From positions 6,828 to 70,827 of the forward strand of contig PCVY01000023.1 of assembly GCA_002787155.1 (NCBI GenBank): a stretch of 64,000 nt of DNA, given 5' to 3'. Below the pieces are notes generated by a model. That model did no database searches, was not told the origin of the DNA, and was given only the letters and a program-made list of their open reading frames with translations. The stretch is from Candidatus Abzuiibacterium crystallinum (GTDB taxonomy: Bacteria; Omnitrophota; Omnitrophia; Omnitrophales; Abzuiibacteriaceae). Both the position numbers and the translations under genes were made by a program. Shown one piece after another: positions 23,321 to 52,800 of the stretch (its first letter is position 1; each line of letters opens with the position of its first letter).

Positions 23321-23334
23321 ACACAGGACAACAG

Positions 23335-23946: not shown

Positions 23947-23955
23947 GCAGATACC

Positions 23956-26147: not shown

Positions 26148-26214
26148 TGATTTTTTACCCCCATCTCATCAGCCCTGATTTATAATAGAAATTAGCGCCG
26201 TGCGCGAGTTTCTC

Positions 26215-26241
26215 CCTTTCCCCTCAAATAAGGGGGAGAGG
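26215..26241 (+). terminator. stem-loop CCTTTCCCC-N9-GGGGAGAGG after pilQ, with no U-tract
   Basis: 9-bp stem including one G-U pair. Confidence 0.25.
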
Positions 26242-26264
26242 AAATTCGGAATGTCAAAAAATAG

Positions 26265-31701: not shown

Positions 31702-31800
31702 ATGTTCATCCCTAAAAATATCCAGAGAGCCATAGCCTTTTTTCTTGCCATTTCATTCTCTTTATCGAATGGCCCAACGCTTTTACTTGCCGAAACTTAT
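31702..31800 (+). other. N-terminal signal-peptide-like / signal-anchor segment of the giant protein
   Basis: 'MFIPKNIQRAIAFFLAISFSLSNGPTLLLAETY': positively charged n-region (K5, R9), a 12-aa hydrophobic core, possible cleavage at LLA|ETY. Confidence 0.45.
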
Positions 31801-34800
31801 CCGGGAAGCAGCCTGCCATACCATGCGAGCTCTGTGAATCCAAATGCTATTTTGGATTCCCTTAAGCTTCCCGGTGAGTTAGGCATTGTTCAAGAGGTTT
31901 ATAGCGCGGTACCAGGTACAACGGTGCCAGGTTCACAGAACCCGGCACCGGCTGTACCTGGTACCGGAATTGGTTTCAAAGTTAATCAACTGGTCATCCT
32001 CGTGCAAAATGCCCACGCCAATTATGATTCAGAGTCAAACGTCCGCAAAATCATCCAGTTCTTCCAAGAGCACTATCAATTAGGACTTGTTTTACTGGAA
32101 GGCGGGGAAGGCAAGTTAGACCCGCTTTTTTTTAAATCTTTTCCCGATGGCAAAATAAAAGAAAAACTGCTGGATCAATATTTAAAACATGGGGATTTAC
32201 AAGGCGGTGAAGCAGCAGCCATTTTGAATCATTCAAACAACCCAACGAGTTATTGGGGCATTGAAGATGAAACTTTGTACCAGCAAAACAAAGCGGCCTT
32301 CTTAAAAGCCATTGTTCAAACGGATCAAATCTTAAAACAGCTTACTCAAAAAGAAGCCGCACTCGAGGAAAACATTGCTTCATTGCCTGAATCATCACAA
32401 ACCTTTTACAAGGCTTGGCAGGCTTTTCATGCGGATGAGATGAATTTGCTGGAATACGTGAAAACGTTAGCTGAGCATACATCGGGTACCGGTTCTGTTG
32501 ACAGTGTCATTCCCGCTCGTCTTTGGCGGGAATCTACTGTGATCGGTGCTCTTGTGCGCTCATTTCCCGAACTTGCCAAATTGTTGGAAGTAGAGAAAGG
32601 CGAGCAAGCCCTCCAAAAAAGCGAAATTGACATGACCGTCAACCAACTGTTGAAAGAATTTCAATCAACTGCGCTGCCGGCGCTGTCAGTCGAATCACAG
32701 AAAGAATGGGGCCAGCGGATCCAGGATTATCAAACCGGCCGGCTCGGCGTGGGTTTTTTGATCAAACAGCTTGAAAGTTTTCTTACCATTCCCGATGTTC
32801 TAAAACCTGCTATTCAGCACGCCCAAACCATTTCTTCCGTCCGGGGAACAGAAATATTCCATGAACTTGAGCATTTAGAGAATGCTGTTCGCGATCAATT
32901 GCCGGGGCGTGAGCGCCTTCATCAAGTTAACGAACTGCATCTCTTGAAACGGTTTGCGCGTTTAGAAATTACACATGAAGAGTGGAAGGTCATTGCGAGC
33001 GCAGCGAAGCAATCTCAAGACCAAGGATTGCTTCGGTCATTTCATTCCCTCGCAATGACAGAAATGCTTAAGAACCATTTCACTTTCTACCAACTCGCAC
33101 TCAAGCGTGACGGCATTTTATCCGGCCGCATTCTCGAAATCATGCGCCGTGAATCTCAAAAAGTTTCGCTCGTGGTGACCGGCGGTTTTCATGAAAGCGG
33201 TATCAAAGAGCGCCTCCGGGCAAACGGCACCGCTTATGTTTTGATTTCTCCTGCGATTCAGGAAGTCGGATCAAACGAGGCTTACCTCAATGCCATGCAC
33301 GACAAGCGTTCTTTTATGAAATATTTTCAAGGCAGTTATTGGGATGCTTTGGCAAAGGATTACATGCAGCAATCGTCAGCGGCTGCGGGTCCGCAGGAAG
33401 AAAAGTTTATTTTTAAGCAGTGGCGCGATCAACTCATCCAAAACACGCTGCAGGAGGGCAGAATCACGCAGGCAACGCGTTACACGCGCTATTTGGATTC
33501 ATTTTTACAAACCGAGGGAAAACCAGCGGATGACAAAGTTGGCAGAAAAACTCAATTAGAAGGTGCTTTCGAAAGTTTCCTTTCAACTTATTTTAAACAG
33601 CATCAAGCTGATTTGAATGCCAAGCTTGATCATTTTGCGGCAGGTTTCAAAAATATGCTCACACAGGGCACCTTCACGCAAGGGGCGGTCGAAGCCTTGT
33701 TGCGTCAAACACAAGTCCTGCAAACGGCTCAACTCGCACCGGATCTCGCTTTGATTCCGGCCTGGAACCAATTTCATTTAAGTGAAGCAACGATTGAAAC
33801 ACTGCCTGATATCAACCAACCTCTTTGGCTCGAGCACAAGCAAAAATCCGAACTCAGGAGTGAAGAGGTAGACTCTGATTATTGGTATGCTTATGGTGAG
33901 GAATTCCTTATTTTGATGGAAGAGGTGGGGTACCGGATAGATGAAACTGACCTTGAAGGTGATATAACTCTGGAGGTAGAGACAGTATCAGACGATCGCT
34001 TTCCTAAAGATTTTAGCAAATTAGCTAAAAGTGTTCCCGAATCGGACCTCACACGTTTACGCGACACATATATCCATATTCTAAAGAATGCCATTGGGAA
34101 AAGTCGAACACTTGAGGAGATAGTTGAAGGCTTGAGCACTTTAATATTAAGGCAGGCAGGAATTCGATTAAATGACAGAAAATTAATTGAAGCCATTACT
34201 GATATTTTACTAACCTATAAAGAAAAAGGGGTGACGGGACCCACCCTGCAGCTGCGCCACGTTTATCTATTTCCAAGATATGGTGATGTGAATGAAATCA
34301 TTCAATTACTGGCCAACCATCGAGGGAAACGCGGAACCTTGAGCCAAACCCAACGGCAACTGATTGCACAGCAACTCGAAAACATGAAAGAGCAATGGCA
34401 AGCAAATTACGAAAGAGCTCAAGCCGAAAAAACCGAAGAACCTAAGGTTGATGGTCAACCCAAAACCGGTGAATCGCTTTGGCTGGAGGGTCAACCAAAA
34501 CCCGAACTCAGAAACGCAAAAGATTATACTCAGATGAGTGTCAAAGAATTGCTTGTAGAACTTCAATCAACTCGAAGTCAAAGTAGTCAAGTCAATTTTA
34601 AAATACTTAGGATTACCAGCGAGCTGGAGCAGCGCTCAGAGAAGATGTTAGACAGCGAGATAGTGGCGACTATCAATGCTTTACTTTCTGCATTGATGTT
34701 AATTGAGCCATCCAGCGAGGATGCGCTTCACGCTCACACTTCATTGAGGGCGGTGTTAGAACGATTGATAGAGGAAGTCTCTCAAGATGAGCTTGTTTCT

Positions 34801-37800
34801 ATAATCCCTGTTTTACATACAACACTTGAACAAATTCACGGAACGAGCAGTCAAGCCAATATGGCCAGAGTAACCATTACACGAATATTGGAAAAACTCT
34901 CGAAAAAGGTTCCTCTCCCTGCGTTGGCCAGTATTCAGAATGCCTTACTTTTAGCGCTCAAATTGACCGAAGGTTCAGATATTGATACAAGTCACACCAG
35001 AAATAACATAGCTCATTGCTTGGCTTTGGTCACACTGCGTTATTATCAGGTTATTCATTTGACTGATAATAGGTTACCCTTCATCAGTTTAGAAAAACTT
35101 TTGTCAATGGTAAGTTCCGGTCCGGATCGTATTTCACTTTTTCCTATTTATGGGGATCTTGAAGTGATTGGTCAAATCCTGCAATCTCAAGACCAGACAA
35201 ACATGATACAACAACTGAATGCTTACCGGGAACAATTGATGGCACAGTATCAAAGGGAACAGAGATCAGGGATCAGGGGACAGGGAACAGGGAACAGCTT
35301 GCCGGATCATGATCCGCTTTGGACAGCGGGGGTTGCCGGCGGCGTGAATGCGGGAGCAGGAGCTGACCGAGCAGAATTAAGAAACAAAAACTATTCCCAA
35401 ATGACAGCAGACGAACTGCTGCAAGCGCTCAAGTCTGTTCAAGGGACGAATGAAGCGTCGACGGATACTAGACGAGCTCTTTCAAATGCGCTGAATGCTG
35501 CTTTCAGAAGAATGAATCAAGAAGAACTACCCGCCATTTTTCAGGACTCGCTCGCCGCGATCAAAGAAATTGGTGAAAGTGATGAGCGCACTCAAGCTAG
35601 AGATTGGATTGCCATGCCACTCTTTGCCCTCATCCAAAAGATTGACGAGGATCAGCTTGCTTTCGTCTTTGAAAATCTGATAGCTGTTCTAAGAGAAATA
35701 AAAGGATCGAGTCATGCGGCGATTCAAGTACGATTCAGCATCATACAAAATTTAATCTTGATTGTGCACCGCCGTCATCATCGATCTTACACAAGCCCCG
35801 GGGATAAACTCGCTCAGGCGCTTCACGTCCTTTTCTCAGCTGCTTCTTCAAAAGTCTGGGTTTTTGAAACGTATGGCAGTTTACATGCGTTGGATCAAAT
35901 CTTTGAATCCAAAGATGACAAAACAATCATTGCAAAACTGAGCGCTTACAGGGAACAATTAATCGCACTGTCTCTAAGGGAAGAAGCGCCGCGGGTCAAG
36001 GGTCAAGAGCAGCAAGACACGGGCGGCGGATCAGGGGACACGGATCAAAATGATTCCATCTGGGCAGCCACTGTCTTGGGGCCTGCGAATGTGAGCGCCT
36101 CTATCAAAATTCATTCATCACGGTCTGAATTACGCATGAAACGCCGTTTGGATCCTTTAGATCAACTCTTGAATGATCTTAAGTCACTCAAAGGTTCGGG
36201 TGATACCACAAACGGCATCAGGGCAGATCTTGCGGATGCCCTGACAACATTGGGCAGAAAATTAACCGAATCTCAATTATTTCTTATCGTTGATCCCATC
36301 ATTACACAATTAGAACAAATTGAAGGATCACGATATACGGCCAATCGGGCAAAACTGGCCATTACCTCATTCATTAATATGGCAGCATCGCGCCTTTCGC
36401 CTACTCAACTGGGCGGTTTGGTTAAGCCATTATTTAACCAAATTGTGTTCAAACGTGAACTGGAAGAATTGACTTCAAACATACCAGTTTCATTTGGCGA
36501 CAGTTTGCTGGAAGTTGTCAGAGAAATCGATCAAACCCAATTACAGGAAGTGGCACGTTTACTGTTTGATTATTTAACAAATCTTCCGGATGACTTGGAA
36601 TACACAAATCTAAGTCTACGTTCTATTTGCCGGGCTTTGACAATGGTATTTAAACGTATCGATACCTTCCCATGGTCGGAAGCAGTTGCTGCGTTTAAAA
36701 CATTACACAGAAACACTGAGCAGACCCGAACATTCTACCCAGCCTTTCCATGGATTTCAGATGTTTTAGCCATGGCGCTCCTCAGAATGCACCAGATTGA
36801 AATTGAAAAAGGGAGGGACAGCCTTTTTTCTGCGCTTTCCCGTCTTTTGGAGTTTCATAAGGACGACACGGTTCTTTTTCTGCGTCATGGAGATTTTAAC
36901 GAAGTTAATTCCATCCTCCAGTCTCACGCGGATCGTTCTACCAAAACCGCGCAACTCAATCATTACCGCGAACAATTACTGGCCTTACATCAAAGGGAAC
37001 AGGGAGCAGGGAGCAGGGAACAGGGAACTCCGCCACACAGCGTCGGGCGGATCCGTCCTCCGGCGGAAGGGATCAGGTCACAGGATACGGATCACGAACT
37101 CTGGCTCAGCGGACCGGTGGGGGCAGGAGCAGTTGGTGTTGGCGCAGCAGTGTTGAATACCAAATCGGAGCTCCGAACTCATGGAGATGATGAATATGAT
37201 GTCATGGGTTTTGAGTCAAAATATTGGAAAATGGATTTAAACGAGTTACTCGATGAACTTTGGTTCATCTTATGGTTCAACGAAGAAGGGTGGGGAAAAA
37301 GTTTTGATAGGAACACCATTATTGAAATTACCGATCATATTCAAAGGAAAAGTAAGGAAGCCGATCAAGATGAACTTGTTCCTGCCGCCCGGCGGCTTTT
37401 TGATGCTTTGGAAAAAACGGTGAAGTATTTCAATCGTGACACGGCGGCACCGCACTTGGCGGTTGCCAGAGCGCTTGCGGCCGTTCATTGGAAGATTCAT
37501 GGTTTCAATACTTCGGAATGGTCAAACGAGTTATTTTTGACGCTCGAAGATATTTTTGTAATTGCCATCGGTGAGAAATCACTTTTCTTAAGTTACAGCA
37601 GCCCGGCTGCCATTAAGCAAATTCTTGAGCTCAAAGATCAAAATGCCATGATTTACCAACTCAAAGCGCTGCGCGAACAAATTCTTGCCGCCTATCAAAG
37701 AGAACAGGGAACAGGGGACTCCGCCGCACATCGTCGGGCGGATCCGTCCTCCGGCGGAAGGGAGCAGGAACCGCGGGACACGGGATCACATGAGCCTCTT

Positions 37801-40800
37801 TGGACTGCAGGGGTAGGCGCCGGCGTTCTGCTATCGGCCAAATCAGAATTACGCGTGCAATTTTTTCAGATTGCTTTAACAAAGCTCGTTGACTTTGCAA
37901 GACAAAACGCATCTCTTTTCTTTCGATATGTCATCAACCGTCAGAAGGTTGTTGAGCGGGATGATGACGATTATGAAAAAATGAGTACCGATGAACTATT
38001 AGACGACCTTCAATTTATTCACCTGGCTTATGCTTTTCGCCATGTCCCGCCTCAGCGCAGGTGGGATATTTCACTTTCGCTTGGGTGGCGCGTGCAAAAA
38101 ATGACAAAACCCGAACTTCTCGACTTTTCAAGAAAACTTCTCACTATCTTAACAACCACAAAAGGTTCTAGTGAAAACGCACATCAAATAAGAAGTGCCG
38201 CTGCCGGAGTCTTTAAGGAAGTGGTTAGAATTATTCCAGATACCGAATTATTAGCTATCTTTAAGGCGCTTTTTTCAGCATTAAAAATAACGCACCAGTC
38301 GCTTAGCGTTGCCTTTAGTCACGCCGCCAGGATTGAAGAGCGTGCAATCACAGACACTTTTGAAATAATACGTAAAAGAATGCCTAAAGCTGATTTTTCG
38401 CAAGTGGTTGACGAATACTTGGCAGTGTTGGAAGAAATAAAGAATCGAAAATTTCTTTTCTGGGAAAAAACAATACAACACCAAACTCTCCATTTAATGG
38501 GGGAAGCAGTCTATTCCTTTCCGGAAGCTCAACTGAGGCGAACGGCTAAAGAATTGATCGCTATTTTACGAGCTCTCAAGGACCAGGGCGGAAATGTGAA
38601 CGAAATTCGAATTTTATTACTTTATGTTTTTCGGAACATCGTCGAGCGTTTACCCGAAGCTGATCTGGGCGGCTATGTGACTGAATTACTCTCAACGTTT
38701 GATGCTATCAAAGGATCGAACGAACACGCTGGAGAAGCAAAAGGAGACATAGGTCATATTTTGTCGAAAGCAGCTGAACGGATGCCGCCCTCAGAACTAC
38801 CTCATTTTGCGGATGAAGCATTGATCAGGCTAGAGTCAACGCCAAATCGGGGAAATCAAGCTTATCAGACAACGCGAGCGATGGCGGAGGCTCTTTGGGG
38901 TTTTGCAAAGGCAGTTGATCCCGAAAAGGCGGATCCGCAAAAGATGTCTAAAATCATGAATCTACTTCTTGAAAAATTAAAGCTGATCAAAGGAAAAGGT
39001 GACAATGAGGAGTGGGCCAAAATACATATCTTGCTCGCTTTAGGAGCCATAGCTAAAAAAATCCCACATCAAGAGCTTCCCGGGCTTTCCAATGCAATTC
39101 TTTCAGAGTTAACGCATTATGAGTTTAATGACGGACTCAAAGGCCGTTTAATTGATGTGCTGATAGCAATTGCAGACAGCATTGATCTTGCTGAGCTGCC
39201 AAAGATATCAAACGAGCTTCTGGATGTTTTAAAAGAGATGGGAGAATTAAATGATGACGAAGATGGAGGGTATCAAACACTCGTCACTATAGCTGTATTT
39301 TTTGAACAGATCACACCCAAAATCTCAGAAACAGAACTCCCTCGTATTTCAAAAGCATTTCTCACTGCACTCGCCGCCATCAAAGGATCTAGTTACAATC
39401 TAGACCGTGTGAGAAGGTTTGTCGGAGACGTGCTGGCTTTGATATCACTGAGGATCAATCACTTACCATTGGATAATAAGCCATTAATTGAACAGCTTCA
39501 AAAGTTCTTCTCGCTTGCTCCGGCTAGTCATTCACTTTTTCCGATGTACGGCGACCTAAATGAAATTGGGCATATTTTAAAGCTTGAAGATCACAAGCAA
39601 GTAATAGCCCAACTCAATGCCTACCAGGCACAATTACTGGCACGGTATCAAAGGGAACAGGGAACTCCGCCACACAGCGTCGGGCGGATCCGTCCTCCGG
39701 CGGAAGGGAACAGGGAACAGGGGACGGGGATCAGGTCACAAGACACGGATCACGATCTCTGGCTCAGCGGACCGGTAGGGGCGGGTATCCGGGCAGAATT
39801 AAGAAACAAAGACTATTCCAAAATGACGATCGATGAATTGTTACAGGCACTTCAAATGGGAAGGTCTGATCAAGAAGCTCAGGAACTTAAAATTGGAATT
39901 GCCAAAGTTTTAAAAGAATCAGCTAAAACCATGCAACCAACGGAACTTCAGCATCTTTCTAATAGGCTCCTTTTACTGCTAGAGGCAGCACCGGCAAAGG
40001 GGAGGGCGGGCCGGCAAACCATTCAAGCAGTTGCAGATATTTATCAAGTGATTGCGATGAAAATTGACCCTGCCGAATTGCCTAAGATTTTAGAGGCACT
40101 GCTTACCGCCTCAAAACTACCGCTCAAATATGACGTTGACGGCAGAGATGCTAAAAGGTTCATTACGATTGCATTGACAAAAGTTGCTGAACGAATCCCA
40201 GAAGAAAAACTTCCTACCATATTAAATTATGCGCTTCTTGAATTAAGCCATTATGATTTGGATGATCAATTAACATACAGTTTAATTTTTGTGCTCGATG
40301 CAGTTGCTAACCGAATCCAACCAACCGAACTGCCAAGAATTTTGCATGCCTTACTCGATAAGCTTAAAACAATCAAATCATTAGATGATAAAGATGAAGA
40401 GGATCTCATTTGGCAGGTAGTGATGATAGCAGCATTTACCTTTAAATCGATTGCCGCCAGAATGAGCGCAACGGAACTACCGGCCATTTCGAAAAGACTT
40501 CTCGAAATACGCTCGCTTGCCAAAAGAGATAGCACTCAGGCGGAAAAAACAAGAGACGCTCTCTTAGCGCCTTTTCCTGCCATTGCTGCCCGTATAGACA
40601 AAAAAGAATTACCTAACTTATTTGATCAATTTGTTGACATTTTGAAAAATACACACCGAACAGACGCATCGCCGGGATCAAGTTCTAACATGAGATTGCG
40701 TTCGCGCAAAGTATTGGCAATTATTTTTCTCAGGAACCATCAATTACCTCTGGATGATGAAACCTTGGCCAAAGCGCTTGAGAACCTCTTGGGCATTCAC

Positions 40801-43800
40801 TCTCCTACCGATTCACTTTTTCCCATTTATGGTGAGTTCTCCGAAATCGACCGCATTTTACGATTGCCAGGCCGTGAACAAATGATTGCTCAGCTCACTA
40901 TTTACCGGAAACAATTAATCGCACAGTCTCAAAGGGATCAGGGAACAGGGAACAGGGAACAGGGAACAGGGGACGGGGAACAGGGGACGGGGATCAGGTC
41001 ACAAGACACAGAATCAAATGATACGCTTTGGGTAATTAGTCCTGCTGTCGAACGCTCCGAACTCAGAACCAAAGATTATTCCCGCATGAGCGTTGATGAA
41101 TTGTTAAACGAACTTCAGTCAATCAAAGGATCAACTATTGATGTCAATTGGGCAAGAGAGGCCATTGCCGATACCCTCACAGAAATATTAAAAAGAATTG
41201 ATCCAACCAAACTTCCCGCTATTTCACAAGCCTTGTTGACCGCTTTAAAAGAAATCAAAGGATTTGCTGATGATGCTAATCGGACAAGATGGGCCATTAC
41301 CTTTTCCTTCCCAGAAATATTGCAAAGAATTGATCCAACCGAACTCCCCGCTATTTCACAAGCGTTGTTGATCACTTTAAAAGAAATCAAAGGATTATCT
41401 AATGCGACCAATGAGGCAAGACGGACCATTACCTTTTCCTTCCCAGAAATATTGCAAAGAATTGATCCAACCGAACTCCCCGCTATTTCACAAGCCTTGT
41501 TGATCGCTTTAAAAGAAATCGAAGGATCAACTGATGCTGCCAATCAGGCAAGATGGGTTATTGCCGATGCCTTCAGAGAAATGCCAAAAAGAATTGATAA
41601 GTCTGAACTTCCCGCTATTTCACAAACCCTCTTAGCTGCTTTAAAAGAAATCAAAGGATCAACTATTGGTGCCAATCAGGCAAGAGAAGCTATTGGCAAA
41701 ACCCTAGCTGTTATTGTCTTTCGTCATCATCAAATCCCTGTCACCGATGAGACAAATGATTTATTGAGCGCTCTTCAAGATGTCTTTACACTTGAAATGA
41801 ACGGTGTTTCCATCTATCCCATAGAAAACCATCATCCATTGAACAACCCGGACAATCCCATTCATCAAATCTTTAAACAACATGATCAAGATTACGCACA
41901 AATCATGAGCCAGCTCAATCGTTACAGGGAACAATTGAGCGCACAGCATCAAAGGGATCAGGGAACAGGGAACAGGGAACAGGGGACGGGGATCAGGTCA
42001 CAAGACACGGATCACGATCTCTGGCTCAGCGGACCGGTAGGGGTGGGTGCTGGTTTAACAAAAGCCGGTCGACAGTCCGCAGACCATGATAAAAGGGTAG
42101 AACTGCGAAATGAATCACCCAACCTAGAAGACTTGAGTCCAACCGATGAGGCCCGTGAAGTTGAAGTGGTCATTAAGGCAATTCATGCATTGACAGATTC
42201 GGTTTGGAAGCAACCGCTGCCCCGTCTCAATACCCGATCGAACGCAGGAGCTGAACTTGCTTCATTAGTGAACCAGTGCGTTCACTTGATACGGGATACA
42301 AAGATGACGGTTAACGAGCAAATACAATTGGTGAAGGCGTTCCTGCATTTGCTCGAGTCTTTCGAGTCCTTATACTTGAAGACACTGGTTGGAAGTGCGA
42401 GTCATTTGCAACTGCATTGGCTGCTTAGGCACGTCATGACGGCAATACCGTTCGGGCAAATCACGCCTATCCGTCATGAGATCTATTTATCCCAAGAAAT
42501 AGCCAGAAGGCAGGGTCCTTCCCGTAACACAACCTTGCATATAGATTTTCTAAGCGAAATATTAATCATGCTTGCATTGAAGCAAGCAGGTTTTAAAGGA
42601 ACGTGGGATACGTTAGCCGTTGATAAAATATACAACACAAACGTGTGGAAAGAATTGGGTGATTTCTATTCGGGAACTGTCAGGGTGCGGAGGGAAGGTA
42701 TCGGATTCCTGCATCAATATGCTGATGATGCTGAAATTAACAAGATTATAAATATCTGGCTGGATGATAGCGGCAATCTTGATCACACGCGTGCAGAACA
42801 AGTCATCACTCAACTTAAGCTCTATATCGATCAGTTGCTTCATCAAATTAAAATAAAAGCAAATGAAGAACCCGGGACCGATGATGCTGAACAATCAGCT
42901 GACTCTCGTCCGGAAGATATTTGGCTGCGGGGCTCGTTCCGCCCTCAAGGCGGATTGGGGCCTTCAAAATCTGAATTGCGCACGGCCAAGTCAAAATCTG
43001 ACCTTGGAAAGCGCTTAACCCAATTAGCAAAAGATTTAGAAGCCGAGGTTGAAGCGCGGCAGATAAAAGGATTGGCAAAGCAATTGCTTGAGAATAAAAG
43101 CACCCGCACAAAAACAGATGCCCAAATCGAATCAGAGATCAAAGAAAAAGCGGCGGATGATGCCGCTATGGACCGGTTAATTGCTCATTTAAAAATTGCG
43201 CGCGCTCTTAAGGAAGCGGGAAATGATTTTTTGAGGGATTATGAACAAACGCATTATCTCAAATTAGCTAAAATTCAGCAGCCAAACGCTGTTTTGTGGG
43301 GTCTGCGCTTTCTGGATCTTGATGATATCCAGGATCCGGAAATTCGCCGGTTGATGGGGAAACTTCAGTCACTTTTGATGGTGAACGAGTTCTTTGGGCG
43401 TTCTAGCGCCGCCTTTGTCGAAAGCGTGCTGACGGAATTTATTGTCAACACCGTGATCGGAGATGATTTTGGCATGACGGAACTCTTGACGTCTCTTGAT
43501 CCTAACCAAAACCTGATCGAATTGTTTCAAGATTGGGGCGTTAACGTTCAGCTCAAATACAGCCGGGAGCACACGGGCATTCAAGCGCTCTATGACATAG
43601 CACGTCTTTATTCCAAGGTGTTCCCGGAGTTCAACAATAATGCACGTACCGGTTTTATCACGCATGATTTCAAGGAAATGCTGAGGGAGCCTGAAGGGGA
43701 TGCCGATCGAAATCAGCAGGCACGCGCGTTGGCAAGGGGAGGAGCCGCGCAAGCACTCAATCTGTTAACCATTCGCTTGCTGGGTTTGCCAGCGGGGCGC

Positions 43801-46800
43801 ACCATGGAACAACAGTGGCAGGAACTTTTTAAAATCACCGAAAAAGGAATTCCCAATCTTCAGAAACCGGAACATTTAAACGGCGCGCGCGCCGAAGATA
43901 TTTTGGCGGGTCTGGCAGAAATTTCCAAGACGTCTCAAGGACAACTCAAAGAAGTGGTGGCTGAGCTCATCCAGGGACGGTTTAAATTGCTGGTGAATCA
44001 CGATGTCGAACGGTTTAAACAAATTGGCATCATCATTGGTTTTACGGGGATTGACGGTTTTGCAAAGATTCCGTTCGGCCGCTTGCGGGAAAAATATCAT
44101 CTGACCGAAGGCAGTGAAGAGGAAGGCCGGCTGCTCAAAATCGTTGCCCAAATTTCCAGAACAGCCCGGGAAGGGACAGGCGGCCTCATTGAAGAAGTGT
44201 TTGATCTTTACAGCCAAGAAGCCGGCGAACATTTGGACGATTTGAACAAACTGCTTCAGGCATTTAGTTACTTTGTGCGGCTTGTGAATTTTCACCACGA
44301 TTATGAACGGCTTGTCTTAGAAGGTGATATCGGCAAGGTGAACAATGAAGCGCTCTTTGTCAGCTTGCGGGATTTGAAGCGCACACTTGATATCGTGAAG
44401 AAAAACGATGCCAAAGGGATGGACATTCGCGATGCCATTGCTTCTGCTGTCAAGCGCCGCTATTACAACCGCTTGAGCATCGAAGATCGGGGTATTGTTC
44501 GTGATTTAATGGCGAGACACCGGCTGATTCATGAAAACGATCTCCTGGATTTTGATTATGTGATTGATGGTTTCAAAAACGGCAGTTCCCGAATTCGTAT
44601 CTATCGCAAACGTAAATCAGGCCCGGCGCGGTTTAAACGAACGGAAGTCAAGCCCGGCGAATATAAGATGGAATTAATTCAAGAAAGCGTGGGAAAACCC
44701 GAACTGCTGCTCGAGATTCCGCTGGCTCAGCCGCTTGCCAACGTTGACCCGAAAATTATTTTAAACGAAACGACCCGCCGTAACCTGGCCAATATTCTGG
44801 ATGCATTGGAAGTGGAGGAGGGAAAGCGCTTTAATCCGGTGCTCGAATTTGGCGTGACTTCAGGCGGCAAAAGTACGACGGCAGCGTTGGTTGCCAAGAT
44901 TCTGGGCGTTGGTTTTACGCGCATTCAAATCAATGAACGCACCGATGAATTTGACCTTTTCGGATCGTTTCAGCCTTATGAAATCAATATCACGTTAGAA
45001 GAAGCCATCCAGCTTTTGCAGGAAGCGCTGGCCACGAACAATTATAACGGTCTTGAGGATGTGTTTAGTCGTTTAAAGTCGGATCAAACGGGACAATTTT
45101 GGGAAAATTATTTCAATGCTCAAGAACGACAGACAATCGAGCTTGGAAAGGACAGCCGTTATCCCCAGCGTTCGGTATTGGAGCGTCAACGAGCCGCCAT
45201 TCGTGATAAATTAAAACAATTGGCGGATAAACAGTTAGAACTTGCTCAATCGCTCAAAAGTTTAAGCGCTCAGGAACGCCGCCTCATTGATTCCAAGACA
45301 GATAACCCTGTCTGGCAAGCGCAGCTTGCCCAGCTGCGCCGGGAAGAAGCGGAAGGTTTTGATCAGCTGAACCGCATCAAATCCATTGCATTTATGTTAA
45401 ACCACGAGGTGGGCCTTCGGTATAAGGAAGGGCGTTTTCTCACGGCTTACAAGCGCGGAGATCTCATTCTGCTTGATGAAGTGAATTTAGCCAACGAAGA
45501 AATGCTGGGCGTGCTTTATCAATTACTCACTTTGGGTTATTTGGAATATAACGGCAAAGTGATCGAACCGCCTTTGGGCAAACAAGCCCGCATTCTAGCC
45601 ACGGCCAATCCCTCCGGTTATGCGGGCCGCAGACGCATGAGCGAAGCTTTTATGAACCGTTTTGAAATTATCCATGTTGATGAAATGACGGATGAGGAAA
45701 TGCGCGATATCGTGGTTGGGCAAATGATGAAAGATCTCATCGCCTCAGGCCGCTATACAGCCGGGGATTTTGAACAAAACTCGGATGAAGCGCCGGAAGT
45801 ATGGGATAAAAAAATCAACAAGATTTTACAGGAAGAATATGGTATTACGCGCGAAAGCACTCGATTGTTAGCTGGAGTTCAGCGAAAATTTAACAGCATT
45901 TTGGCGACGGGCAGTTTTCCGCGCATGGGATCCGACTCCAATTATGTCTTCACGCTTCGGAATCTTCAACGGATCGCCGGCGATGTGAAAGAACGCAAAG
46001 AAAATGGCGAACGCATCACCCTTGAAACCTGGATTCGGGAAGCGTACGGCGAATATGCCGGCGTCCTCATGCGGCCCAGCACACAGCCTTCCTACACCGC
46101 AGAGCGGCTTAAGCCTGATGAATCATTGCCGGCGGAACATCATTTATGGGATGATCCGGATTACAAAACCATTCGGCGGGTATTTACGACTTTCATGGGT
46201 GAATTGATTGCCGGAGAAAGTCATCAAAGTTACGATGACGCTTTTGACGAACTCATTCGCCGGCATTTTGAAACCATTCCGTATGTCTATGACTCAACCG
46301 CCCATGCCATCAAGCTGGACGGTCTTCTTACCCAAGGTGCTGAGCCAAACGATCAAAACCCCATTGAACCTTTAATCGAAGTGGGGTCAACCAAAATGGT
46401 TCAAAGGCAAATTTTAAAAGGCATTCGCCGGAATATCCCAACGCTCCTTGTCGGTCAATCCGGCGGCGGTAAAACAGAAATCATCGGCGACTTAGTCAAT
46501 CGCCTTGGCCGTCAATATATCAGCGTGTCTTTGGGCGATGCCACACTGGAAAGTCTGATCGGCACCATGGAATACAACCGAATGGAAAAACGTTTTGTTT
46601 ATCGGCGGGGTGTGCTCGTCAAAGCCATGGAAGAAGGTTCGGTTTTGGTGCTGGAAGAACTCAACATGGCTAAATCGGGCATATTAGAAATTTTGAATGA
46701 ATATTTCGATGACGGAACGTTTACCAACCCGTTTACCCTAAAACAGGTAGCGGTACACCGTGACTTCCGGTTGTTCGCTACCATGAACCCGATTCAGGGT

Positions 46801-49800
46801 GAGACGGGAGAAAATTTAGGCCGCGTGAGTTTGTCGCCCGCTCTCAGAAACCGCTTTCGGGAAATTTGGGTGCCGCACAAGAAAACGGACGCTGAAATGA
46901 ACGAAATTTTAATCGGAAAATTCAAGCAATTGGGTGTTGAAAAAATCGAAAAAGCAACAGGCGCCAAAATCATCGGCTTTTTCCGTGCCTATGAAGAGGC
47001 TTTTAAAGATCAAGCTGATCCGGTGTATTACACCAGTCTGCGCGATTTGAATCGGATTGCCAAAATCATGGCTTATTTAATCAATGAGCTCGACATGCAT
47101 GAGTCGGATGCATTGGCGCGCGCCATTGACCGCGTTTACCGTTTACGCATGCAAAACAGCGGCGCCTTGGCAGTGGTCGATCAAATTCTCATTGAGCTTA
47201 AAATCAAGATCCCGGGTGCCGGTCAATTGTCGTACCAGTCTCGGAATGGCGTCTTGGAAGTGCGCGATGGTCAAACACTGGTTGCCAAATTAGACCTTTC
47301 TTTGATACAGGCCAAGCTTCGCGACCGCATCCGCGGAGAACTCAGTGCTGATACGGATCCGGCAGAACTTGAAGCACTGACAGAGAAGCGTCTAAAAACT
47401 CTCTTGGATGAAGCTGTCTTGGTAGAAAATCCGCGCACGAAGGCTCATCTGCTGGATTTAATGGAAGCCGTCACGCTTCCTTCCGGCGAAGTGAAAAAAG
47501 GAAAATTTAACCCGATTTTTCTTTTGGGTGAGACCGCCGGCGGGAAAAGCTCCCTTACCAAATATTTGGCACTCCATCTTTTGGGCCAAAACTATACGCG
47601 CATTCAATTCAACGAACGCACGGATGAGTTCGACCTTTTTGGCGCCTATGAACCGCGCGAGCTTCACATGGGTCTGGACCGCGCTTTTCGGATTGTTCAA
47701 AATGCGATGGAACAAGGGGAGTGGGTCAAAATCAAGAAAGCCTTGAAGCTTTGGCAAACGGGGGCATTGACCGAAGATGATCTGTCCGAACTTGAAATGA
47801 TTGAGAAGGTGGAAGAGCGCATTCGCACGGTAGATTTAGAGGCCTCTCAACAGATCACAAAGATCTTAAAGGATGCTTCCGAGGAAGATGTCTTAGGTGA
47901 CCCCGGTCAGAAACGTGAAGCCGAACGCAAACTCAAAACCATTGCGTTTTTGATTGAAAATAACATGTTAAATGTCGAGCTGGAATTTCGCGAAGGCAGG
48001 TTATTACAGGCGATCAGGCGCGGCGATGTGGTGGTGCTGGATGAAATGAACCTGGCGAATGAAGAAGCGCTCGCTGTTTTATATCAACTCCTGACTCTGG
48101 GTTATGTGGAGTATTACCACAAAGATACCCGGCAAGTCGAACGCATTACCCCGGCACCGGGCTTTAAACTCATGGCGACCGCAAACCCCGCCTCATATGC
48201 GGGTCGTCATCGGTTGAGTGAAGCCTTAATGAACCGGTTTGAGATTCATTATGTGATGAACATGACACCCCAAGAAATGACCGAGATTCTGCGCGGTGAA
48301 AATAGTCATGAACCAGTGTTCGAACGCGATCAGTCATTTCAGACCACTGTTGAGAAACTGACATTGCTTCAAGAAAATATCAATGAAGCGCTCCGAAACG
48401 GTCAATTTCCCGAAGTGAGTTCCGACCAAGTGCAAGGCTATTTATTTACGCTTCGCAATTTGAAACGTGTTTTACGGAATACAGCAGAACTCTTACGCCA
48501 AGGCGACAGTTCGCCGCCATCTGAGTCACTCATTCGACAAGCCTACCTTGAATACTTAGGCGTCCTCGGACGTTCAGACGCCTCCATCAAAACGCTGCAG
48601 TCTCTTTTCAAAGCGCCAAAACAATTTCCCCAATTTAACCCTGATTTTCGAATTTCCTTTGAGTCAATGACTATGCCCAACGGTCAATCGGGTATTTTAG
48701 CGGGTGGTTTCAAAGTCGTGAGACGTTTTTATGAAGATGAGGCAGAAGGCGTTTCGCACGATGCAGATGTCATTGAAGAGCTTGAAGAGGGTGCAACGAC
48801 TAATTTGATCCGCCAAGCAATTGCGAAAGGACTGTTAGATTCTCGGATGGCGGTTTTGCTGGTGGGGCAAAGCGGCGGGGGTAAAACAGAAATGATCGGT
48901 GATTTAGCAAGGCGTCTGGGCTGGCGCTACCGCTCCGTTTCGCTTGGTAATGCCACCCTGGAGAGTTTAGTCGGCGGTTATGCCATGGACCACGAAACAA
49001 AAAAATTCCGTTATATCCCCGGGATTTTAATCCAGGCCATGCGCGAAGGCGCCATTTTGGTTTTGGAAGAAATGAATATGGCACCGTCCGGACTATTAGA
49101 AATTCTGAATGAATATTTTGACGAAAGTACCTTTACCAATCCCATGACGGGACAGAAAGAAAAAATTCATCCCAATTTTCGGTTATTTGCCACCATGAAT
49201 CCGGAAAAAGGTGTGACGAGTACCAGCGAAGGCCGTGTCGGCTTGTCGCCCGCTCTTCGCAGCCGTTTCTCAGAAGTATGGGTGCCCCATATACGGACGC
49301 AGGCGGAAACAGAGAGAATTATTCGTAAGAAATTCAGCAATCGAGGGGTAAGCCATGTACCGCCCAAAGTGACGGAAGATATTTACCGCGTCTATGACCA
49401 ATACCGCCGGTTTGTTGAAGAAGGCAAAATTGGCCAAGAAAGCAACGAAGGCTATTACGTCGGTTTGCGTGATGTGGTGAAAATAATTGACCTGGTAGCG
49501 CAGGATCAATCGCGCGGCATTCCAATGGAAGAAGCGCTGCGTTTTGCCTTCAAACGAATTTTTTATTTACGCCTCAATAGCGATGCGGACCGCAAAACAG
49601 TTCAAGAAGAGATTCTAAAAACATACGACATGAGCAAGACGGAATACCAATGGAAAAGTGTGAATGACCATTGGGTGGTTAAGCGCACTCAGTGGCAAAC
49701 GGCAGAAGTTCCGAAGGCACTTTTGAAGGAAAAAGGATTTATTTTAACGCCGCAAAGCCAAGAAGAGCTCGCGCTTCTGCTAGAGGCAATGCAGCGCGGC

Positions 49801-52800
49801 GTGACTATTCAGGGCAAAGCAGCCGCGCGTTCCTTTAATCCCATGATGCTGTTTGGTGAGACTTCCGGAGGAAAGTCTACCTTGGTTGAAATTGCCGCCA
49901 GTATTTTCCGGACCCCCTTTACCCGTATTCAAATGAATCAACGAACCGATGAATACGATTTGTTGGGCAGTTACCATCCTGTTGAAGTGAAGTTGACATT
50001 TGAACAAGCCTATGAAGTCGTTCAATCGGTTATTCGCCAAAATCAAACACTGCGTACCGCACAAGTGCTGCGGGCTTTACACATCACGGATGATCACGTG
50101 AAATCGGTTTTGCGCATAAACCCTGATCAAACGATGCCCTTAGAGCAGCTTCAAAAGCGCTTTTTAGAAGAACATGTTTTGGCAAATGCACGGCAGGGAA
50201 ATCCCAAGAGCATTGAACAAATGAAAGATATCGGCGCACTCCTCTTGAACGGCGTTGCCGGCATTGAACTTATTTTCCGTGAAGGCATGCTGCTTCAGGC
50301 CATGGGCGACCGTGAAACCGGTCGACCGGGTCAAGTGGTTCTGTTGGATGAATTTAATTTAGCCAATGAAGAAGCAATCGGCATTCTTTATCAACTGCTA
50401 ACGCTGGGATATATCGAATTTCAAGGGCGGAAAATCTTTCCCGGTAAAGGGTTTCAATTAATTGTGAGCGGCAACCCTTCCCGCTACTCGGGCCGAAGGC
50501 GGATGAGTGAAGCTTTTATGAACCGCTTTGAGATCTTGAACCGTCCTTCAATGACCAAAGAGGAAATGGTTAAAATCTTGACGGAGAAATATGCTTTAGA
50601 AGCATCGGGGATTTCGAAATCCGGCATCGAAGCCCTGGTTGATTTGCAGTTCGACATCGAAGAAACGGCTCAGTCCATCGGTTTTGACTTTTTCAACCAA
50701 GATAACACGTACCGATTTAGTTTGCGGAACTTGGAACGTATTGTGCAGGATTTGAAAAAACGGATGGAAGTGGAGCCCGAACGTTCCGTGCAAGTCATGT
50801 TGCGCGAAGAGGCCTATTTAGAATATGCCGGTTTGCTTTCACAGTCCACCGATGAGGATGATCCGAAGAAGAATAATTTGAAAGTCTTAGCAGGTCTTTT
50901 TAAGAAACACTTCAATTGGGAGATCGATCCGGAAACGGTTTTACCCGAATTCAAGAAGCAGACGCTTGTTAAAGGAGAAGACGAATGGATTTCCTTAAAC
51001 GGGGTGCGTGTGAGAAAACTCTCACCGCATCAAATGTTAGAGAGTTTGCAGTTGGAATTAAATGAAGAAATCAGAAGCGGCGCCTTGGCAGATGATGATG
51101 GCGGAAAATTAGTGCTTTTAACAGAGGCGAATCTTGTGCGCATTTTAGCGCAGGTAGAAAAACGGCTCGCCAGTCATGATCCGCTTTCAAGAAAAGAAAT
51201 CATGCGCGAGGAAGCGCGCACGGAATATCTTAAGATGCTGGGGGAATCGCCTCGTTTGGTCAAGCGCTTAGACGAACTGATTAACCAGCATTTTTATACT
51301 CAAGCCGAGCGCATCGAGCCTTTGGTAGAACTCAAATCAACACGTTTGGTGCGCATGCAAATTTTAAAAGGCTTCCGTGACGGCGGCGTGATTCGTTCTC
51401 GTGATACGGAAGGACGGGAGGTTTTGAATCATCGTTCGCAGCCCGTGCTTTTAGTCGGACAATCGGGCGGCGGTAAAACCGAAGAAATTGCCGATGCGGC
51501 CAGGGAGCTCAACCGGCCTTATATTTCGGTGGCGTTGGGTGCGGCGACCATTGAATCGTTAATCGGCAGCTTTGTGCTGAATAGCGAAACGGGCACTTTT
51601 GAATTTCGAAAAGGGATTATGGTGCGCGCGATGGAAGAAGGGAGCGCGCTCACGCTCGAAGAGCTCAATATGGCGGAAAGCAGCATTATCGAAGTGCTGA
51701 ATGAATATTTTGATCGAGGAACGATGACGATTCAAGAGCGGAATGTTCCCATCCGCATTCATCCCAACTTCCGCTTGTTTGCGACAATGAATCCGACCGA
51801 AGGCAGAACCGGCAGAAATGCGGGACGTATCCCGCTGTCTCCTGCGCTGAGAAGCCGGTTTCGGGAAGTCTGGGTCCGCAATGAACGCAATAAGGGCGAA
51901 CAATACCGCCTCATGTTAGGCGGGATTCACGCGCTTGTTTCTTCTTTAATTACAAGAGGTCTGCCGGAAGATAGGCCGGATGAATTGGAAAACTTAGAGC
52001 TTGATTGGACACGCCGAAGATTGGCTGAGACCGCCGGGCAGCAGGTGCAATTCGCAAGCAGCGAGTCATTGTCCGCCGCATTAAAGGCGGGTCCGTCCAT
52101 TACACTGCCTCGCCATGACAGTTCAGCTATCCGCATGGCCAAAGCATCTGAAGACGGAACGCCCAAAGAAAAACCCACATCAAAGGAATGGGAGCGTATG
52201 GCTATCAATGAAAGAAAACGCATTTATGAAGAACAGTTTCGGATTGTGAGCCACGGCATCATGAACATCATGTCTTCCGATGAAGCCATCGAGTTAGGCC
52301 TATCAAGAGATGGAAGCCATCATTGGGCGTATGCACCTAGTATCAATACATTAATTTATAACAGCCGGGAAATCATGACTTTGAGCTTGGATGCGTTAAT
52401 CGGTGTCGGCGTTCATGAATCGATGCACCGTTACGGCACCCGGTATACGTCTCTTTTTGCAGACTTTTTAGATGCACAGAGTTTGGCGGGCAGTTTTTTT
52501 AATATTTTAGAAGACGGACGCATTGAAAATTGGGCACGTTATCGATTCCGGGGCGTGGAGCGGCCGCTGCGCACACTGAATGATGAAATTATTTTTGATT
52601 TTGAAGATGATAATGAAATGGTTGAGCGCATGATTAAAACTTCTAAAGATGGTAAAGACATAGGTCATGCCGGTGCCATCGGTAATTTCTTTCTTTATCT
52701 CGCAAAACGCGGATCAGATCCGGGCGCCGGCAAAGTCATCGAAAAGTTCTTAAAAGCGTTTGAAGAAAGAGATCCGGCTTTGAAAGAGGATATAGAAAAT

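What the first reader, a model, noticed from the sequence alone, without database searches (positions are those of the whole stretch)
41680..42045. Near-identical segmental duplications of several hundred nt within the giant gene (41.7 kb, 57.3 kb, 63.8 kb; 41.1 kb versus 63.2 kb arrays)
The segment 'IGKTLAVIVFRHHQIPVTDETNDLLSALQDVFTLEMNGVSIYPIENHHPLNNPDNPIHQIFKQH.QD.AQIMSQLNRYREQLSAQHQR' occurs at about 41680-41960, 57270-57540 and 63790-64000. The antisense shadow ORFs 41761..41952 and 57346..57537 differ by only 2-3 aa. The 44-aa repeat arrays at 41.1-41.7 and 63.15-63.8 kb are also nearly identical. 'QDTDHDLWLSGPVG' is identical at 39730-39780 and 42000-42045. Such high identity over more than 20 kb means recent duplication or gene conversion. 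It is an assembly hazard and a substrate for homologous recombination that could delete or reshuffle 15-22 kb modules.
Basis: seen in the sequence. Interest (0 to 1): 0.55.

Follow-up and report, generated by a model that had tools for sequence, protein, structure and literature searches.

The report
Recently copied modules inside a giant gene
Three similar stretches inside a roughly 11,000-codon gene of an uncultured groundwater bacterium (Omnitrophota) are real, fairly young copies of one helical-repeat protein module that are still exchanging sequence with each other; this is expected behaviour for giant repeat genes, although here it has already broken one public assembly.

Summary
The repeats are real and lie at the stated coordinates, but "near-identical" is overstated. 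M7 against M14 (41059-41884 / 63145-63988) is 84% identical. The M7 and M9 C-caps (41704-41996 / 57289-57581) are 93.5% identical. Only blocks of 77-90 nt are exact.

The gene (31702 to beyond 64000) belongs to Candidatus Abzuiibacterium crystallinum (Omnitrophota). It encodes a midasin-like AAA+ core flanked by two arms of at least 14 capped HEAT-like modules. Modules are joined by linkers encoded by (AGGGAAC)n heptanucleotide tracts. M7, M9 and M14 form a young clade (dS 0.14-0.30, against more than 1 for a diverged module pair).

Patchy gene conversion is supported by three results:
- Identity between M7 and M9 jumps from 57% to 95% at 41704/57289.
- An 84-nt block is identical in all three copies.
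- The two sides of the linkers have different closest relatives.

Two results support instability. One NCBI contig ends at 41,775, inside the exact triple repeat. An independent assembly lacks one 132-nt unit (41364-41495).

No deletion of 15-22 kb was observed. This is ordinary concerted evolution in a giant repeat gene. The heptanucleotide-coded linkers are the most unusual detail.

The parts
31702..63999 (+). Giant ORF. Open from 31699, ATG at 31702, at least 10,766 codons, and it runs off the window end. The same gene is called at 11,094 aa in an independent 71,961-bp contig.
41026..41961 (+). Module M7, the last module of the N-terminal arm. It has the LW..SELR lead-in, an N-cap, five 44-aa HEAT-like units and a C-cap. 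The AF2 model is an all-alpha solenoid (pLDDT 87, pTM 0.83).
41074..41733 (+). M7 array of five 132-nt (44-aa) units. Units u1, u4 and u5 are closest to the same-position units of M14 (88.6, 89.4 and 80.3%). Units u2 and u3 are closest to each other (87.1%).
41364..41495 (+). One 132-nt unit that is present here and, as far as the fetched locus reaches (41425), in the NCBI contig, but absent from the ENA contig k141_303988. The deletion junction lies within the 70-nt exact repeat 41294-41363 = 41426-41495.
41704..41996 (+). M7 C-cap of the variant type (..SIYPIENHHPLNNPDNPIHQIF..QLNRYREQLSAQHQR) plus its linker. It is 93.5% identical to 57289-57581. Upstream of 41704 the identity to M9 drops to 57%.
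41754..41837 (+). 84-nt block identical in all three copies (also at 57339-57422 and 63858-63941). The NCBI contig PFGO01000018.1 ends at 41,775-41,776, inside this block.
41953..41997 (+). (AGGGAAC)n heptanucleotide tract that encodes the QGTGNRE-type linker after M7.
41967..42048 (+). 3' half of the M7 junction (..GIRSQDTDHDLWLSGPVG). It is 98.8% identical to the M5/M6 junction at 39705-39786, a different partner from the 5' half.
39705..39786 (+). M5/M6 junction, the partner of 41967-42048.
56272..57546 (+). Module M9. Its array is diverged from M7 (57% nt, dS 1.26), but its C-cap from 57289 onwards is of the M7 type.
57289..57581 (+). M9 C-cap plus heptanucleotide linker (tract at 57538-57581). 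This is the proposed conversion tract shared with M7.
62853..63999 (+). M13/M14 junction plus module M14 (five units at 63160-63837; C-cap from 63808, cut by the window end). It is collinear with 40902-41884 at 84-85.5% identity.
46390..51805 (+). Midasin/Rea1-like AAA+ core between the two arms (8 AAA_5 stretches). It lies between the repeat copies, so recombination between M7 and M9 or M14 would delete it.

Best explanation
The repeats are three paralogous copies of one protein module inside a single giant gene (about 11,100 codons) of Candidatus Abzuiibacterium crystallinum (Omnitrophota).

Architecture. A midasin-like AAA+ core is flanked by two arms of beads-on-a-string modules. There are at least 7 modules before the core and at least 7 after it. 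Each module has these parts in order:
- an LW...SELR lead-in;
- an N-cap;
- 1 to about 12 HEAT-like units of 44 aa;
- a C-cap ending in QLNAYREQLxAQYQREQ;
- a flexible QGTGNRE-type linker encoded by an (AGGGAAC)n tract.

History. M7 and M14 descend from a comparatively recent duplication of a whole module together with its upstream junction. M9 is an older relative whose C-cap alone was replaced by, or donated to, the M7 type through a gene-conversion tract of about 300 nt. Short conversion patches still homogenise the three copies. Inside each array, unequal exchange between 132-nt units turns over the middle units.

The same process acts at every module junction. The last helix and the linker are homogenised at codon level, and the sequences on either side of the heptanucleotide tract have different closest relatives.

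Shown: the architecture, the divergence values, the breakpoints, a one-unit difference between assemblies and the contig break. Inferred: that the mechanism is RecA-type conversion or slippage, the direction of transfer, and that the unit difference is a true population variant.
For: Architecture:
- The ORF is open for 32.3 kb.
- Module grammar was read directly and mapped, with 51 HEAT-like units detected.
- AF2 model of M7: pLDDT 87, all-alpha solenoid. The best PDB fold and sequence neighbours are HEAT proteins.
- The core matches midasin at E = 3e-87.

Young clade:
- C-cap amino-acid identity among M7, M9 and M14 is 69-81%. Every other pair of C-caps is at most 42% identical.
- dS is 0.19 for M7-M14, 0.18 for the M7-M9 C-cap and 1.26 for the M7-M9 arrays.

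Conversion:
- Identity steps abruptly at 41704/57289.
- The identical runs of 84-90 nt give permutation p < 5e-5 (M7-M14), 3.5e-4 (M9-M14) and 0.02 (M7-M9).
- The 5' half of the M7 junction is closest to M9 (97%), while the 3' half is closest to M5 (90%) and M3 (85%). M8 and M9 show the same discordance.
- The fraction of identical codons at identical residues is 0.75-0.91 in the last helix and linker, against 0.22-0.42 expected. In C-cap bodies and N-caps it is about 0.40 against 0.33-0.35.

Array turnover:
- The unit identity matrix shows the middle units closest within their own array.
- An independent assembly lacks exactly one unit, with the junction in a 70-nt exact repeat.

Reality of the structure:
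- The copies differ in a codon-aware way. C-cap dN/dS is 0.11-0.30.

Family pattern:
- C-caps cluster by protein in the few relatives found. P0010 has an internal pair at 64% and P0009 one at 58%.
Against: - No reads were available, so the long-range order from 41 to 64 kb rests on the assembly. Support comes only from the uninterrupted reading frame and from a gene length of 11,094 aa in one other contig, which I could read only up to window position 41,425.
- The dS estimates rest on 64-270 codons and have wide errors.
- The array dN/dS of 1.3 could reflect misalignment among similar units.
- The one-unit difference could be an assembler collapse rather than a true variant.
- The excess of shared codons at junctions could partly come from nucleotide-level selection, or from the tract being a DNA repeat by construction.
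- No outgroup orthologue DNA was obtainable, so the donor, the recipient and the timing of conversion are undetermined.
Confidence: 0.8

Rival explanations
1. Assembly artefact. The distant copies would be produced by mis-joining or duplicating reads from one locus or from co-existing strains, and the true gene would be shorter.
For: - Repeat-rich giant genes fragment and misassemble in short-read metagenomes (West-Roberts et al. 2023, bioRxiv 10.1101/2023.11.21.568195, Curation section).
- One NCBI contig breaks at 41,775.
- Another assembly differs by one 132-nt unit.
- Neither public scan for the 36-nt shared block found another copy.
Against: - The copies differ by 5-16%, mostly by synonymous changes in the C-cap (dN/dS 0.11-0.30). 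Artefactual duplicates would be identical.
- Each copy sits in different flanking sequence, and one frame stays open for 32.3 kb through every junction.
- An independent megahit contig from another sample calls an 11,094-aa gene, compatible with the window's length.
- The exact repeats are at most 90 nt.
Confidence: 0.05
2. The copies are ancient paralogues kept alike purely by strong purifying selection on an essential C-cap and array sequence, with no recent duplication or conversion.
For: - C-cap dN/dS is low, 0.11-0.30.
- The module grammar is conserved across the few relatives.
Against: - Selection on the protein does not remove synonymous differences. dS is 0.14-0.30 here, against 1.26 for the adjacent arrays of the same modules.
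- All three copies are identical over 84 nt, with significant run-length tests.
- The identity step at 41704/57289 falls inside a HEAT-like unit rather than at a domain border.
- The other 11 C-caps perform the same structural role at only 25-42% identity.
Confidence: 0.1
3. The conserved block is maintained for a nucleotide-level or antisense function, such as the 63-aa antisense ORFs, an internal promoter or a small RNA, rather than for the sense protein.
For: - Antisense ORFs of equal length exist at 41761..41952 and 57346..57537.
- The 84-nt block is identical in all three copies.
Against: - Of the 6 nt differences within the antisense ORFs, 4 are silent in the sense frame, which has only 2 aa changes (D/G and Y/H). 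Four residues differ in the antisense frame.
- There is no Rfam match anywhere in the window.
- The ORFs start with TTG, and no homologues were sought or are evident.
- The third copy cannot be checked because the window ends.
Confidence: 0.03

Closest known systems
Omnitrophota giant proteins ('Archaeovorin' type; West-Roberts et al. 2023, bioRxiv 10.1101/2023.11.21.568195). Internal repeats are the rule in Omnitrophota long proteins (bioRxiv 10.64898/2026.06.07.730766).
   Same: - Omnitrophota host.
- Very long single ORF.
- HEAT-type repeats as the most common element, and AAA_5 among the frequent domains.
- A type II secretion-like gene cluster upstream (T2SSE, T2SSF, PilM, secretin; Fig. 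7 legend).
- Repeats cause assembly fragmentation.
   Different: - About 11,100 aa, not 30,000 aa or more.
- No enzyme domains were detected in the window.
- The architecture is a midasin-like core with two arms of capped modules.
- The module C-cap profile matches only 15 of 1.84 billion representative proteins.
- The 2026 survey concludes that most repeats in such genes are old and have dissolved at nucleotide level. Here one clade of modules is still 84-95% identical, with signs of conversion.
- Homology to the type protein of V. archaeovorus was not tested.
Midasin / Rea1 (Mdn1), a eukaryotic giant AAA+ protein (PDB 6hyp, 6i26, 5jcs, 6or5)
   Same: The tandem AAA+ (AAA_5) ring region aligns in 5 stretches at E = 3e-87. 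Both are giant single polypeptides with long helical non-ATPase regions.
   Different: - Bacterial origin.
- A predicted N-terminal hydrophobic signal or anchor.
- The arms are built of repeated capped HEAT-like modules with heptanucleotide-coded linkers.
- No MIDAS/VWA domain was seen in the window, and the C-terminus lies outside it.
- The resemblance concerns the core, not the duplicated segments.
Concerted evolution and gene conversion among intragenic repeats of bacterial repeat proteins. Named from general knowledge, not tested against any specific family here.
   Same: - In-frame tandem units whose internal copies are homogenised while edge copies diverge.
- Unit copy number differs between samples.
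- Mosaic identity blocks have sharp borders.
   Different: - The exchange is between modules 6.5-22 kb apart in the same ORF, not only between tandem neighbours.
- Exchange borders coincide with heptanucleotide tracts that are not a multiple of three.
HEAT / ARM alpha-solenoid repeats (importin-beta, PP2A-A, TOG domains)
   Same: - A 44-aa helix-turn-helix unit.
- The AF2 model is a solenoid.
- The top Foldseek hits are CLASP TOG, Cse1 and importin-beta.
- The profile hits importin-beta and PP2A-A weakly.
   Different: - No Pfam HEAT or ARM model reaches significance.
- Foldseek E is about 1e-2 with TM 0.4-0.55.
- Each short array carries its own dedicated N-cap and C-cap.

Membership tests
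HEAT repeat (Pfam HEAT, HEAT_2, HEAT_PBS and related) | Unit of about 37-47 residues forming two antiparallel helices that stack into a solenoid | tested here: met
   The period is 132 nt, or 44 aa. The AF2 model shows paired helices throughout, with pLDDT 87.
HEAT repeat (Pfam HEAT, HEAT_2, HEAT_PBS and related) | Significant match to a curated HEAT or ARM profile | tested here: not met
   No HEAT family appears at E <= 0.01 in the arms. Scanned module by module, the only matches are Arm_4 at E = 9e-4 and HEAT_Maestro at E = 0.014, each in one module and below the cut-offs.
HEAT repeat (Pfam HEAT, HEAT_2, HEAT_PBS and related) | Fold similarity to solved HEAT solenoids | tested here: inconclusive
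   All the top Foldseek PDB hits are HEAT, TOG or karyopherin proteins, but with E >= 1.2e-2 and TMq 0.36-0.47.
Omnitrophota Archaeovorin-type giant protein (West-Roberts 2023) | Encoded in an Omnitrophota genome | tested here: met
   Neighbouring proteins and the partial giant protein are NCBI records of Candidatus Omnitrophica / Ca. Abzuiibacterium crystallinum.
Omnitrophota Archaeovorin-type giant protein (West-Roberts 2023) | Length of 30,000 aa or more, the paper's working threshold for 'giant' | tested here: not met
   At least 10,766 aa in the window, and 11,094 aa as called in contig k141_303988.
Omnitrophota Archaeovorin-type giant protein (West-Roberts 2023) | Type II secretion-like locus upstream of the giant gene | tested here: met
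   T2SSE 9773-11449, T2SSF 11502-12956, PilM 21455-23320 and secretin 24486-26147, all on the same strand.
Omnitrophota Archaeovorin-type giant protein (West-Roberts 2023) | Sequence homology to the V. archaeovorus type protein, with multiple enzyme domains | not tested
No enzyme domain other than AAA+ was found in the window.
Midasin / Rea1 | Ring of six tandem AAA+ (AAA_5-type) modules in one polypeptide | tested here: met
   8 AAA_5 stretches with E = 1.3e-107. phmmer against midasin chains gives E = 3e-87 in 5 stretches. The exact number of modules was not resolved.
Midasin / Rea1 | C-terminal MIDAS (VWA) domain following an acidic linker | not testable with these tools
   The C-terminal 330-370 residues or so lie beyond the window. 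No VWA hit occurs within the window.
Gene conversion between paralogous segments | Abrupt change of divergence along a pair of paralogues | tested here: met
   57% nt identity (dS 1.26) upstream of 41704/57289, and 95% (dS 0.18) downstream.
Gene conversion between paralogous segments | Identical runs longer than evenly spread differences allow, and discordant relationships of adjacent segments | tested here: met
   Run-length permutation tests. Discordant nearest neighbours of the junction halves.
Gene conversion between paralogous segments | Donor and recipient polarity established with an outgroup | not testable with these tools
   No orthologous DNA was found in genome, metagenome or protein searches.

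The most novel reading that the evidence does not exclude
The (AGGGAAC)n tracts at the module borders may act as built-in recombination joints. Because the unit is 7 nt, the tract encodes the same flexible QGTGNRE-type heptapeptide in all three frames. It also gives every junction a shared stretch of DNA identity. On this reading the tracts seed conversion and module shuffling or duplication between arms 6-22 kb apart. Slippage by one or two units would truncate the protein within 3-71 codons, which would be a possible on/off or length switch. That would make this giant gene a self-remodelling array whose linker is selected at the DNA level.
Probability: 0.3. Interest if true: 0.55.

Novelty: new member of a known kind. 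Interest (0 to 1): 0.38.

Why it matters
- For anyone using this genome: the 41.7, 57.3 and 63.8 kb copies are genuine, but they are the point where short-read assemblies of this gene fail. One public MAG stops there. Unit counts in the 132-nt arrays should not be trusted without spanning reads.
- For the biology of giant genes: West-Roberts et al. left open whether such genes elongate by duplicating repetitive domains. Here one Omnitrophota giant gene grows and is homogenised by whole-module duplication, conversion tracts of a few hundred nt and unit-level slippage.
- The module family is rare, with 15 matches among 1.84 billion representative proteins, and no Pfam model matches it.

Tried and rejected
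Searches that returned nothing useful:
- The search for homologous proteins with the M7 region, and later with the C-cap alignment, gave no hits. With the N-terminal 700 aa it gave only short-contig Omnitrophota fragments at 38-43% identity. Orthologue DNA could therefore not be fetched.
- Exact 36-nt scans for the shared block found 0 matches in genome contigs and in metagenome contigs.
With the C-cap alignment it produced 340 and 367 pattern matches, none confirmed by tblastn.
- blastp of the whole protein against itself reports only the main diagonal. I replaced it with a comparison of 250-aa chunks.
- Literature searches for the assembly accession and for the genus name found nothing. A search on heptanucleotide repeats in reading frames found nothing comparable.

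Ideas rejected:
- A cyanobacterial origin with STRR-type heptamers. HIP1 occurs only once, and the taxonomy is Omnitrophota.
- An RNA element in the conserved block. There are no Rfam hits.
- A hairpin in the 39-nt GC-rich linker insert. The fold z-score is +1.0, no better than shuffled sequence.
- Alternative long reading frames after the heptanucleotide tracts. Stops follow within 3-71 codons.
- The antisense ORFs as genes. The substitution pattern favours the sense frame.
Full report
**Observation**

The window holds one reading frame that is open from 31699 (ATG at 31702) to the last base, at least 10,766 codons.
- 41059-41884 against 63145-63988: 84.0% over 844 columns.
- 41704-41996 against 57289-57581: 93.5% over 293 nt.
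- 39705-39786 against 41967-42048: 98.8% over 82 nt.

Tandem Repeats Finder finds 132-nt arrays at 41121-41686, 63227-63761 and 56895-57219. The antisense ORFs exist at the stated coordinates and differ at 4 of 63 residues.

The longest exact matches are 90, 86, 84, 77 and 70 nt. The features are therefore real and far beyond chance, but "near-identical" applies only to short blocks. The arrays are about 84% identical at nucleotide level and about 70% at protein level.

**What the gene is**

Neighbouring proteins and a partial copy of this protein are NCBI records from Candidatus Omnitrophica / Candidatus Abzuiibacterium crystallinum, an Omnitrophota MAG. Upstream on the same strand lies a type II secretion / type IV pilus-like cluster: T2SSE, T2SSF, PilM, secretin and a PEGA protein. 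West-Roberts et al. 2023 describe such a cluster upstream of Omnitrophota giant genes, and they report HEAT repeats and AAA_5 among the commonest domains of those genes.

The central part of the protein (about 46.4-51.8 kb) carries eight AAA_5 stretches. It aligns to eukaryotic midasin/Rea1 at E = 3e-87. Neither arm has a significant Pfam match.

**Architecture of the arms**

Reading the translation and mapping motifs shows a strict grammar repeated at least 14 times. M1-M7 occupy 34.5-42.0 kb. M8-M14 run from 55.4 kb to beyond 64.0 kb. Each module has these parts in order:
- an 'LW..G..G..SELR' lead-in;
- an N-cap (DYSxMSxDELLxxLQSxKGS);
- 1 to about 12 units of 44 aa (ELPAISQALLxALKEIKGSxxxANxARxxIAxAxxEIxKRID; 51 units detected in total);
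- a C-cap (LAxIxxRxHQ...SLFPxYGDxxEIxxIL...QLNAYREQLxAQYQREQ);
- a polar linker.

With the 14 paralogues as the alignment, AlphaFold2 models M7 as an all-helical solenoid (pLDDT 87, pTM 0.83). Its best structural and profile neighbours are HEAT proteins such as CLASP TOG, Cse1, importin-beta and PP2A-A. These matches are weak, so I call the fold HEAT-like and do not claim family membership.

**Why M7, M9 and M14 stand out**

The C-caps of these three modules share a variant sequence (SIYPIENHHPLNNPDNPIHQIF in place of SLFPxYGDxxEI). They are 69-81% identical to one another. Every other pair of C-caps in the protein is at most 42% identical.

| Comparison | dS | dN/dS |
|---|---|---|
| M7-M14, whole module | 0.19 | 0.77 |
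| M7-M14, array | 0.14 | 1.3 |
| M7-M14, C-cap | 0.30 | 0.30 |
| M7-M9, C-cap | 0.18 | 0.11 |
| M7-M9, arrays immediately upstream | 1.26 | 0.42 |

The trio is therefore young relative to the rest of the gene, but it is not a fresh duplicate.

**Evidence for conversion rather than simple duplication**

1. The M7/M9 alignment changes abruptly from 57% to 95% identity at 41704/57289. That point lies inside the last HEAT-like unit. The high identity then continues to the end of the linker tract.
2. All three copies are identical over 84 nt (41754-41837). Given the number of differences elsewhere, runs of 84-90 nt are improbable: permutation p < 5e-5, 3.5e-4 and 0.02 for the three pairs.
3. M7 and M14 are collinear over the whole module, including the upstream junction (40902-41031 against 62853-62982, 85.5%). 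Units u1, u4 and u5 are closest to the same-position units of the other module (80-89%). The middle units u2 and u3 are closest to their own neighbours (87-90%). This is the classic signature of unequal exchange inside an array.
4. The two sides of a junction have different closest relatives. The last-helix side of the M7 junction is 97% identical to M9, while its LW side is 90% identical to M5 and 85% to M3. The LW side of M9 resembles M1. The LW side of M8 resembles M12 and M13 (90-92%), while its helix side resembles M1.

**The junctions**

Every linker is encoded by a heptanucleotide tandem tract, (AGGGAAC) in 3-9 copies, at 11 junctions and always on the coding strand. Two-unit matches occur 28 times, against 0.04 expected. 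Because 7 is not a multiple of 3, the tract reads as the same heptapeptide, QGTGNRE, in every frame.

At residues that are identical between modules, the same codon is used in 75-91% of comparisons in the last helix and linker, against 22-42% expected from the gene's own codon usage. In C-cap bodies and N-caps the value is about 40%, against 33-35% expected. Homogenisation at nucleotide level is therefore centred on these tracts across the whole gene. The M7/M9/M14 case is simply the largest and youngest example.

Slippage by one or two units would end the frame within 3-71 codons.

**Independent assemblies**

- The NCBI contig PFGO01000018.1 (48,595 bp) is 100% identical to window 20823-41425. 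Its partial protein of 3,358 aa equals the first 3,358 residues of the window ORF exactly. That contig therefore ends at window nt 41,775-41,776, about 25 nt into the 86-90-nt block shared by all three copies.
- An ENA contig from another sample (k141_303988, 71,961 bp) calls the gene at 11,094 aa. Over the 20.6 kb I could read, it matches the window except for one SNP and the absence of exactly one 132-nt unit (41364-41495). Its last 62 nt match 41496-41557 perfectly, and the junction lies in the 70-nt exact repeat 41294-41363 = 41426-41495.
- That is either a true copy-number variant of the 44-aa unit or an assembler collapse. The contig name indicates a final k-mer of 141, which exceeds the 70-nt repeat, so I favour a real variant. 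I cannot prove it.

**Relatives**

A profile of the C-cap matches only 15 of 1.84 billion representative proteins. One of the 15 is the NCBI fragment of this same gene. The longer relatives (P0007, P0008, P0010) use the same grammar of LW..SE[LV]R lead-in, HEAT-like units and SLFxxYGD C-cap. P0010 also shares the N-terminal domain and an AAA+ core. None of the relatives read (P0007-P0010) has the QGTGNRE linker.

C-caps cluster by protein rather than across proteins. Mean identity is 31% within a protein and 23% between proteins, and P0010 and P0009 each contain an internal pair at 58-64%. Lineage-specific duplication or homogenisation of modules therefore recurs in this small family.

**Rivals**

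- An assembly artefact is unlikely. The copies differ in a codon-aware manner, each sits in unique flanking sequence, and the frame stays open through 32 kb.
- Conservation by selection alone does not explain the low dS, the identity step or the identical runs.
- An antisense or RNA function is not supported. Of the 6 nt differences inside the antisense ORFs, 4 are silent in the sense frame (2 sense aa changes), while 4 antisense residues differ. There is also no Rfam match.

**What remains unshown**

No read data were available. The long-range order, the depth ratio and any large deletion between copies (15,585 or 22,104 nt, both in frame) are untested. The direction and date of conversion need an orthologue that the searches did not provide.

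**Verdict**

The finding is real and largely correctly interpreted. It describes the expected behaviour of a modular giant repeat gene, a class already documented in Omnitrophota. It is a new example, with unusually clear traces of conversion and two concrete consequences for assembly. The heptanucleotide-coded linkers that delimit the exchanged segments are the one feature I would not have predicted.

Noticed in passing
window 35254-35297, 36994-37028, 37699-37719, 39705-39725, 40933-40998, 41953-41997, 56200-56244, 57538-57581, 58471-58536, 61444-61488, 62887-62949: Heptanucleotide tandem tracts (AGGGAAC)n, 3-9 units long, sit at every module junction of the giant gene, all on the coding strand. 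Two-unit matches occur 28 times against 0.04 expected. They encode the QGTGNRE linker, which reads the same in all three frames. Codon-level homogenisation between modules peaks here, and the sequences on either side have discordant closest relatives. The relatives read (P0007-P0010) lack this linker.
   Followed up: partly
window 37029-37067 and 39666-39704 (58-nt exact repeat 37015-37072 = 39652-39709); partial copy at 37732-37763: A 39-nt GC-rich in-frame insert, TCCGCC...GGCGGA with 6-nt inverted ends, sits inside the heptanucleotide tract of two or three junctions and encodes PPHSVGRIRPPAE. It does not fold better than shuffled sequence (z = +1.0).
   Followed up: partly
window about 46390-51805: The core of the giant protein is a midasin/Rea1-like tandem AAA+ region (8 AAA_5 stretches; E = 3e-87 to PDB midasin chains). 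This is a bacterial midasin-like motor flanked by HEAT-like arms. No MIDAS/VWA domain was seen in the window, and the C-terminus lies beyond it.
   Followed up: partly
window 41364-41495; L001 20542-20603: An independent assembly from another sample lacks exactly one 44-aa unit of the M7 array. Otherwise there is one SNP in the 20.6 kb compared. This is a possible copy-number polymorphism of the unit in the population.
   Followed up: yes
window 63354-63378: A perfect 12-nt tandem duplication, TATTTATGCCAA x2.1, adds 'IYAN' to the second unit of M14. This is a very recent micro-duplication inside the array.
   Followed up: no
window 41074-41601 against 63160-63699: dN/dS is about 1.3 between the M7 and M14 arrays. 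Substitutions concentrate in the inter-helix loop and second helix of each 44-aa unit, while the ELPAISQALLxALKEIKGS helix is nearly invariant. This suggests a diversifying binding face, but alignment among similar units could inflate the value.
   Followed up: partly
window 9773-27749: A type II secretion / type IV pilus-like cluster lies on the same strand upstream of the giant gene: T2SSE, T2SSF, small pilin-sized ORFs, a TPR protein, a ParA-like ATPase, PilM, secretin and a PEGA protein. It matches the conserved locus reported upstream of Omnitrophota giant genes.
   Followed up: partly
window 3453-7662: A trehalose synthesis block (GT20/OtsA-like, trehalose phosphatase, DUF5752, TreT-like) follows an ammonium transporter at 1666-2901.
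   Followed up: no
window 14401-14457: A 57-nt near-perfect palindrome (91% self-complementary), detected in the self-blastn, lies among the small pilin-sized ORFs.
   Followed up: no
proteins P0006-P0020: The module C-cap profile matches only 15 of 1.84 billion representative proteins, one of which (P0006) is the NCBI fragment of this same gene. The capped-module family is therefore very rare and has no Pfam model.
   Followed up: partly
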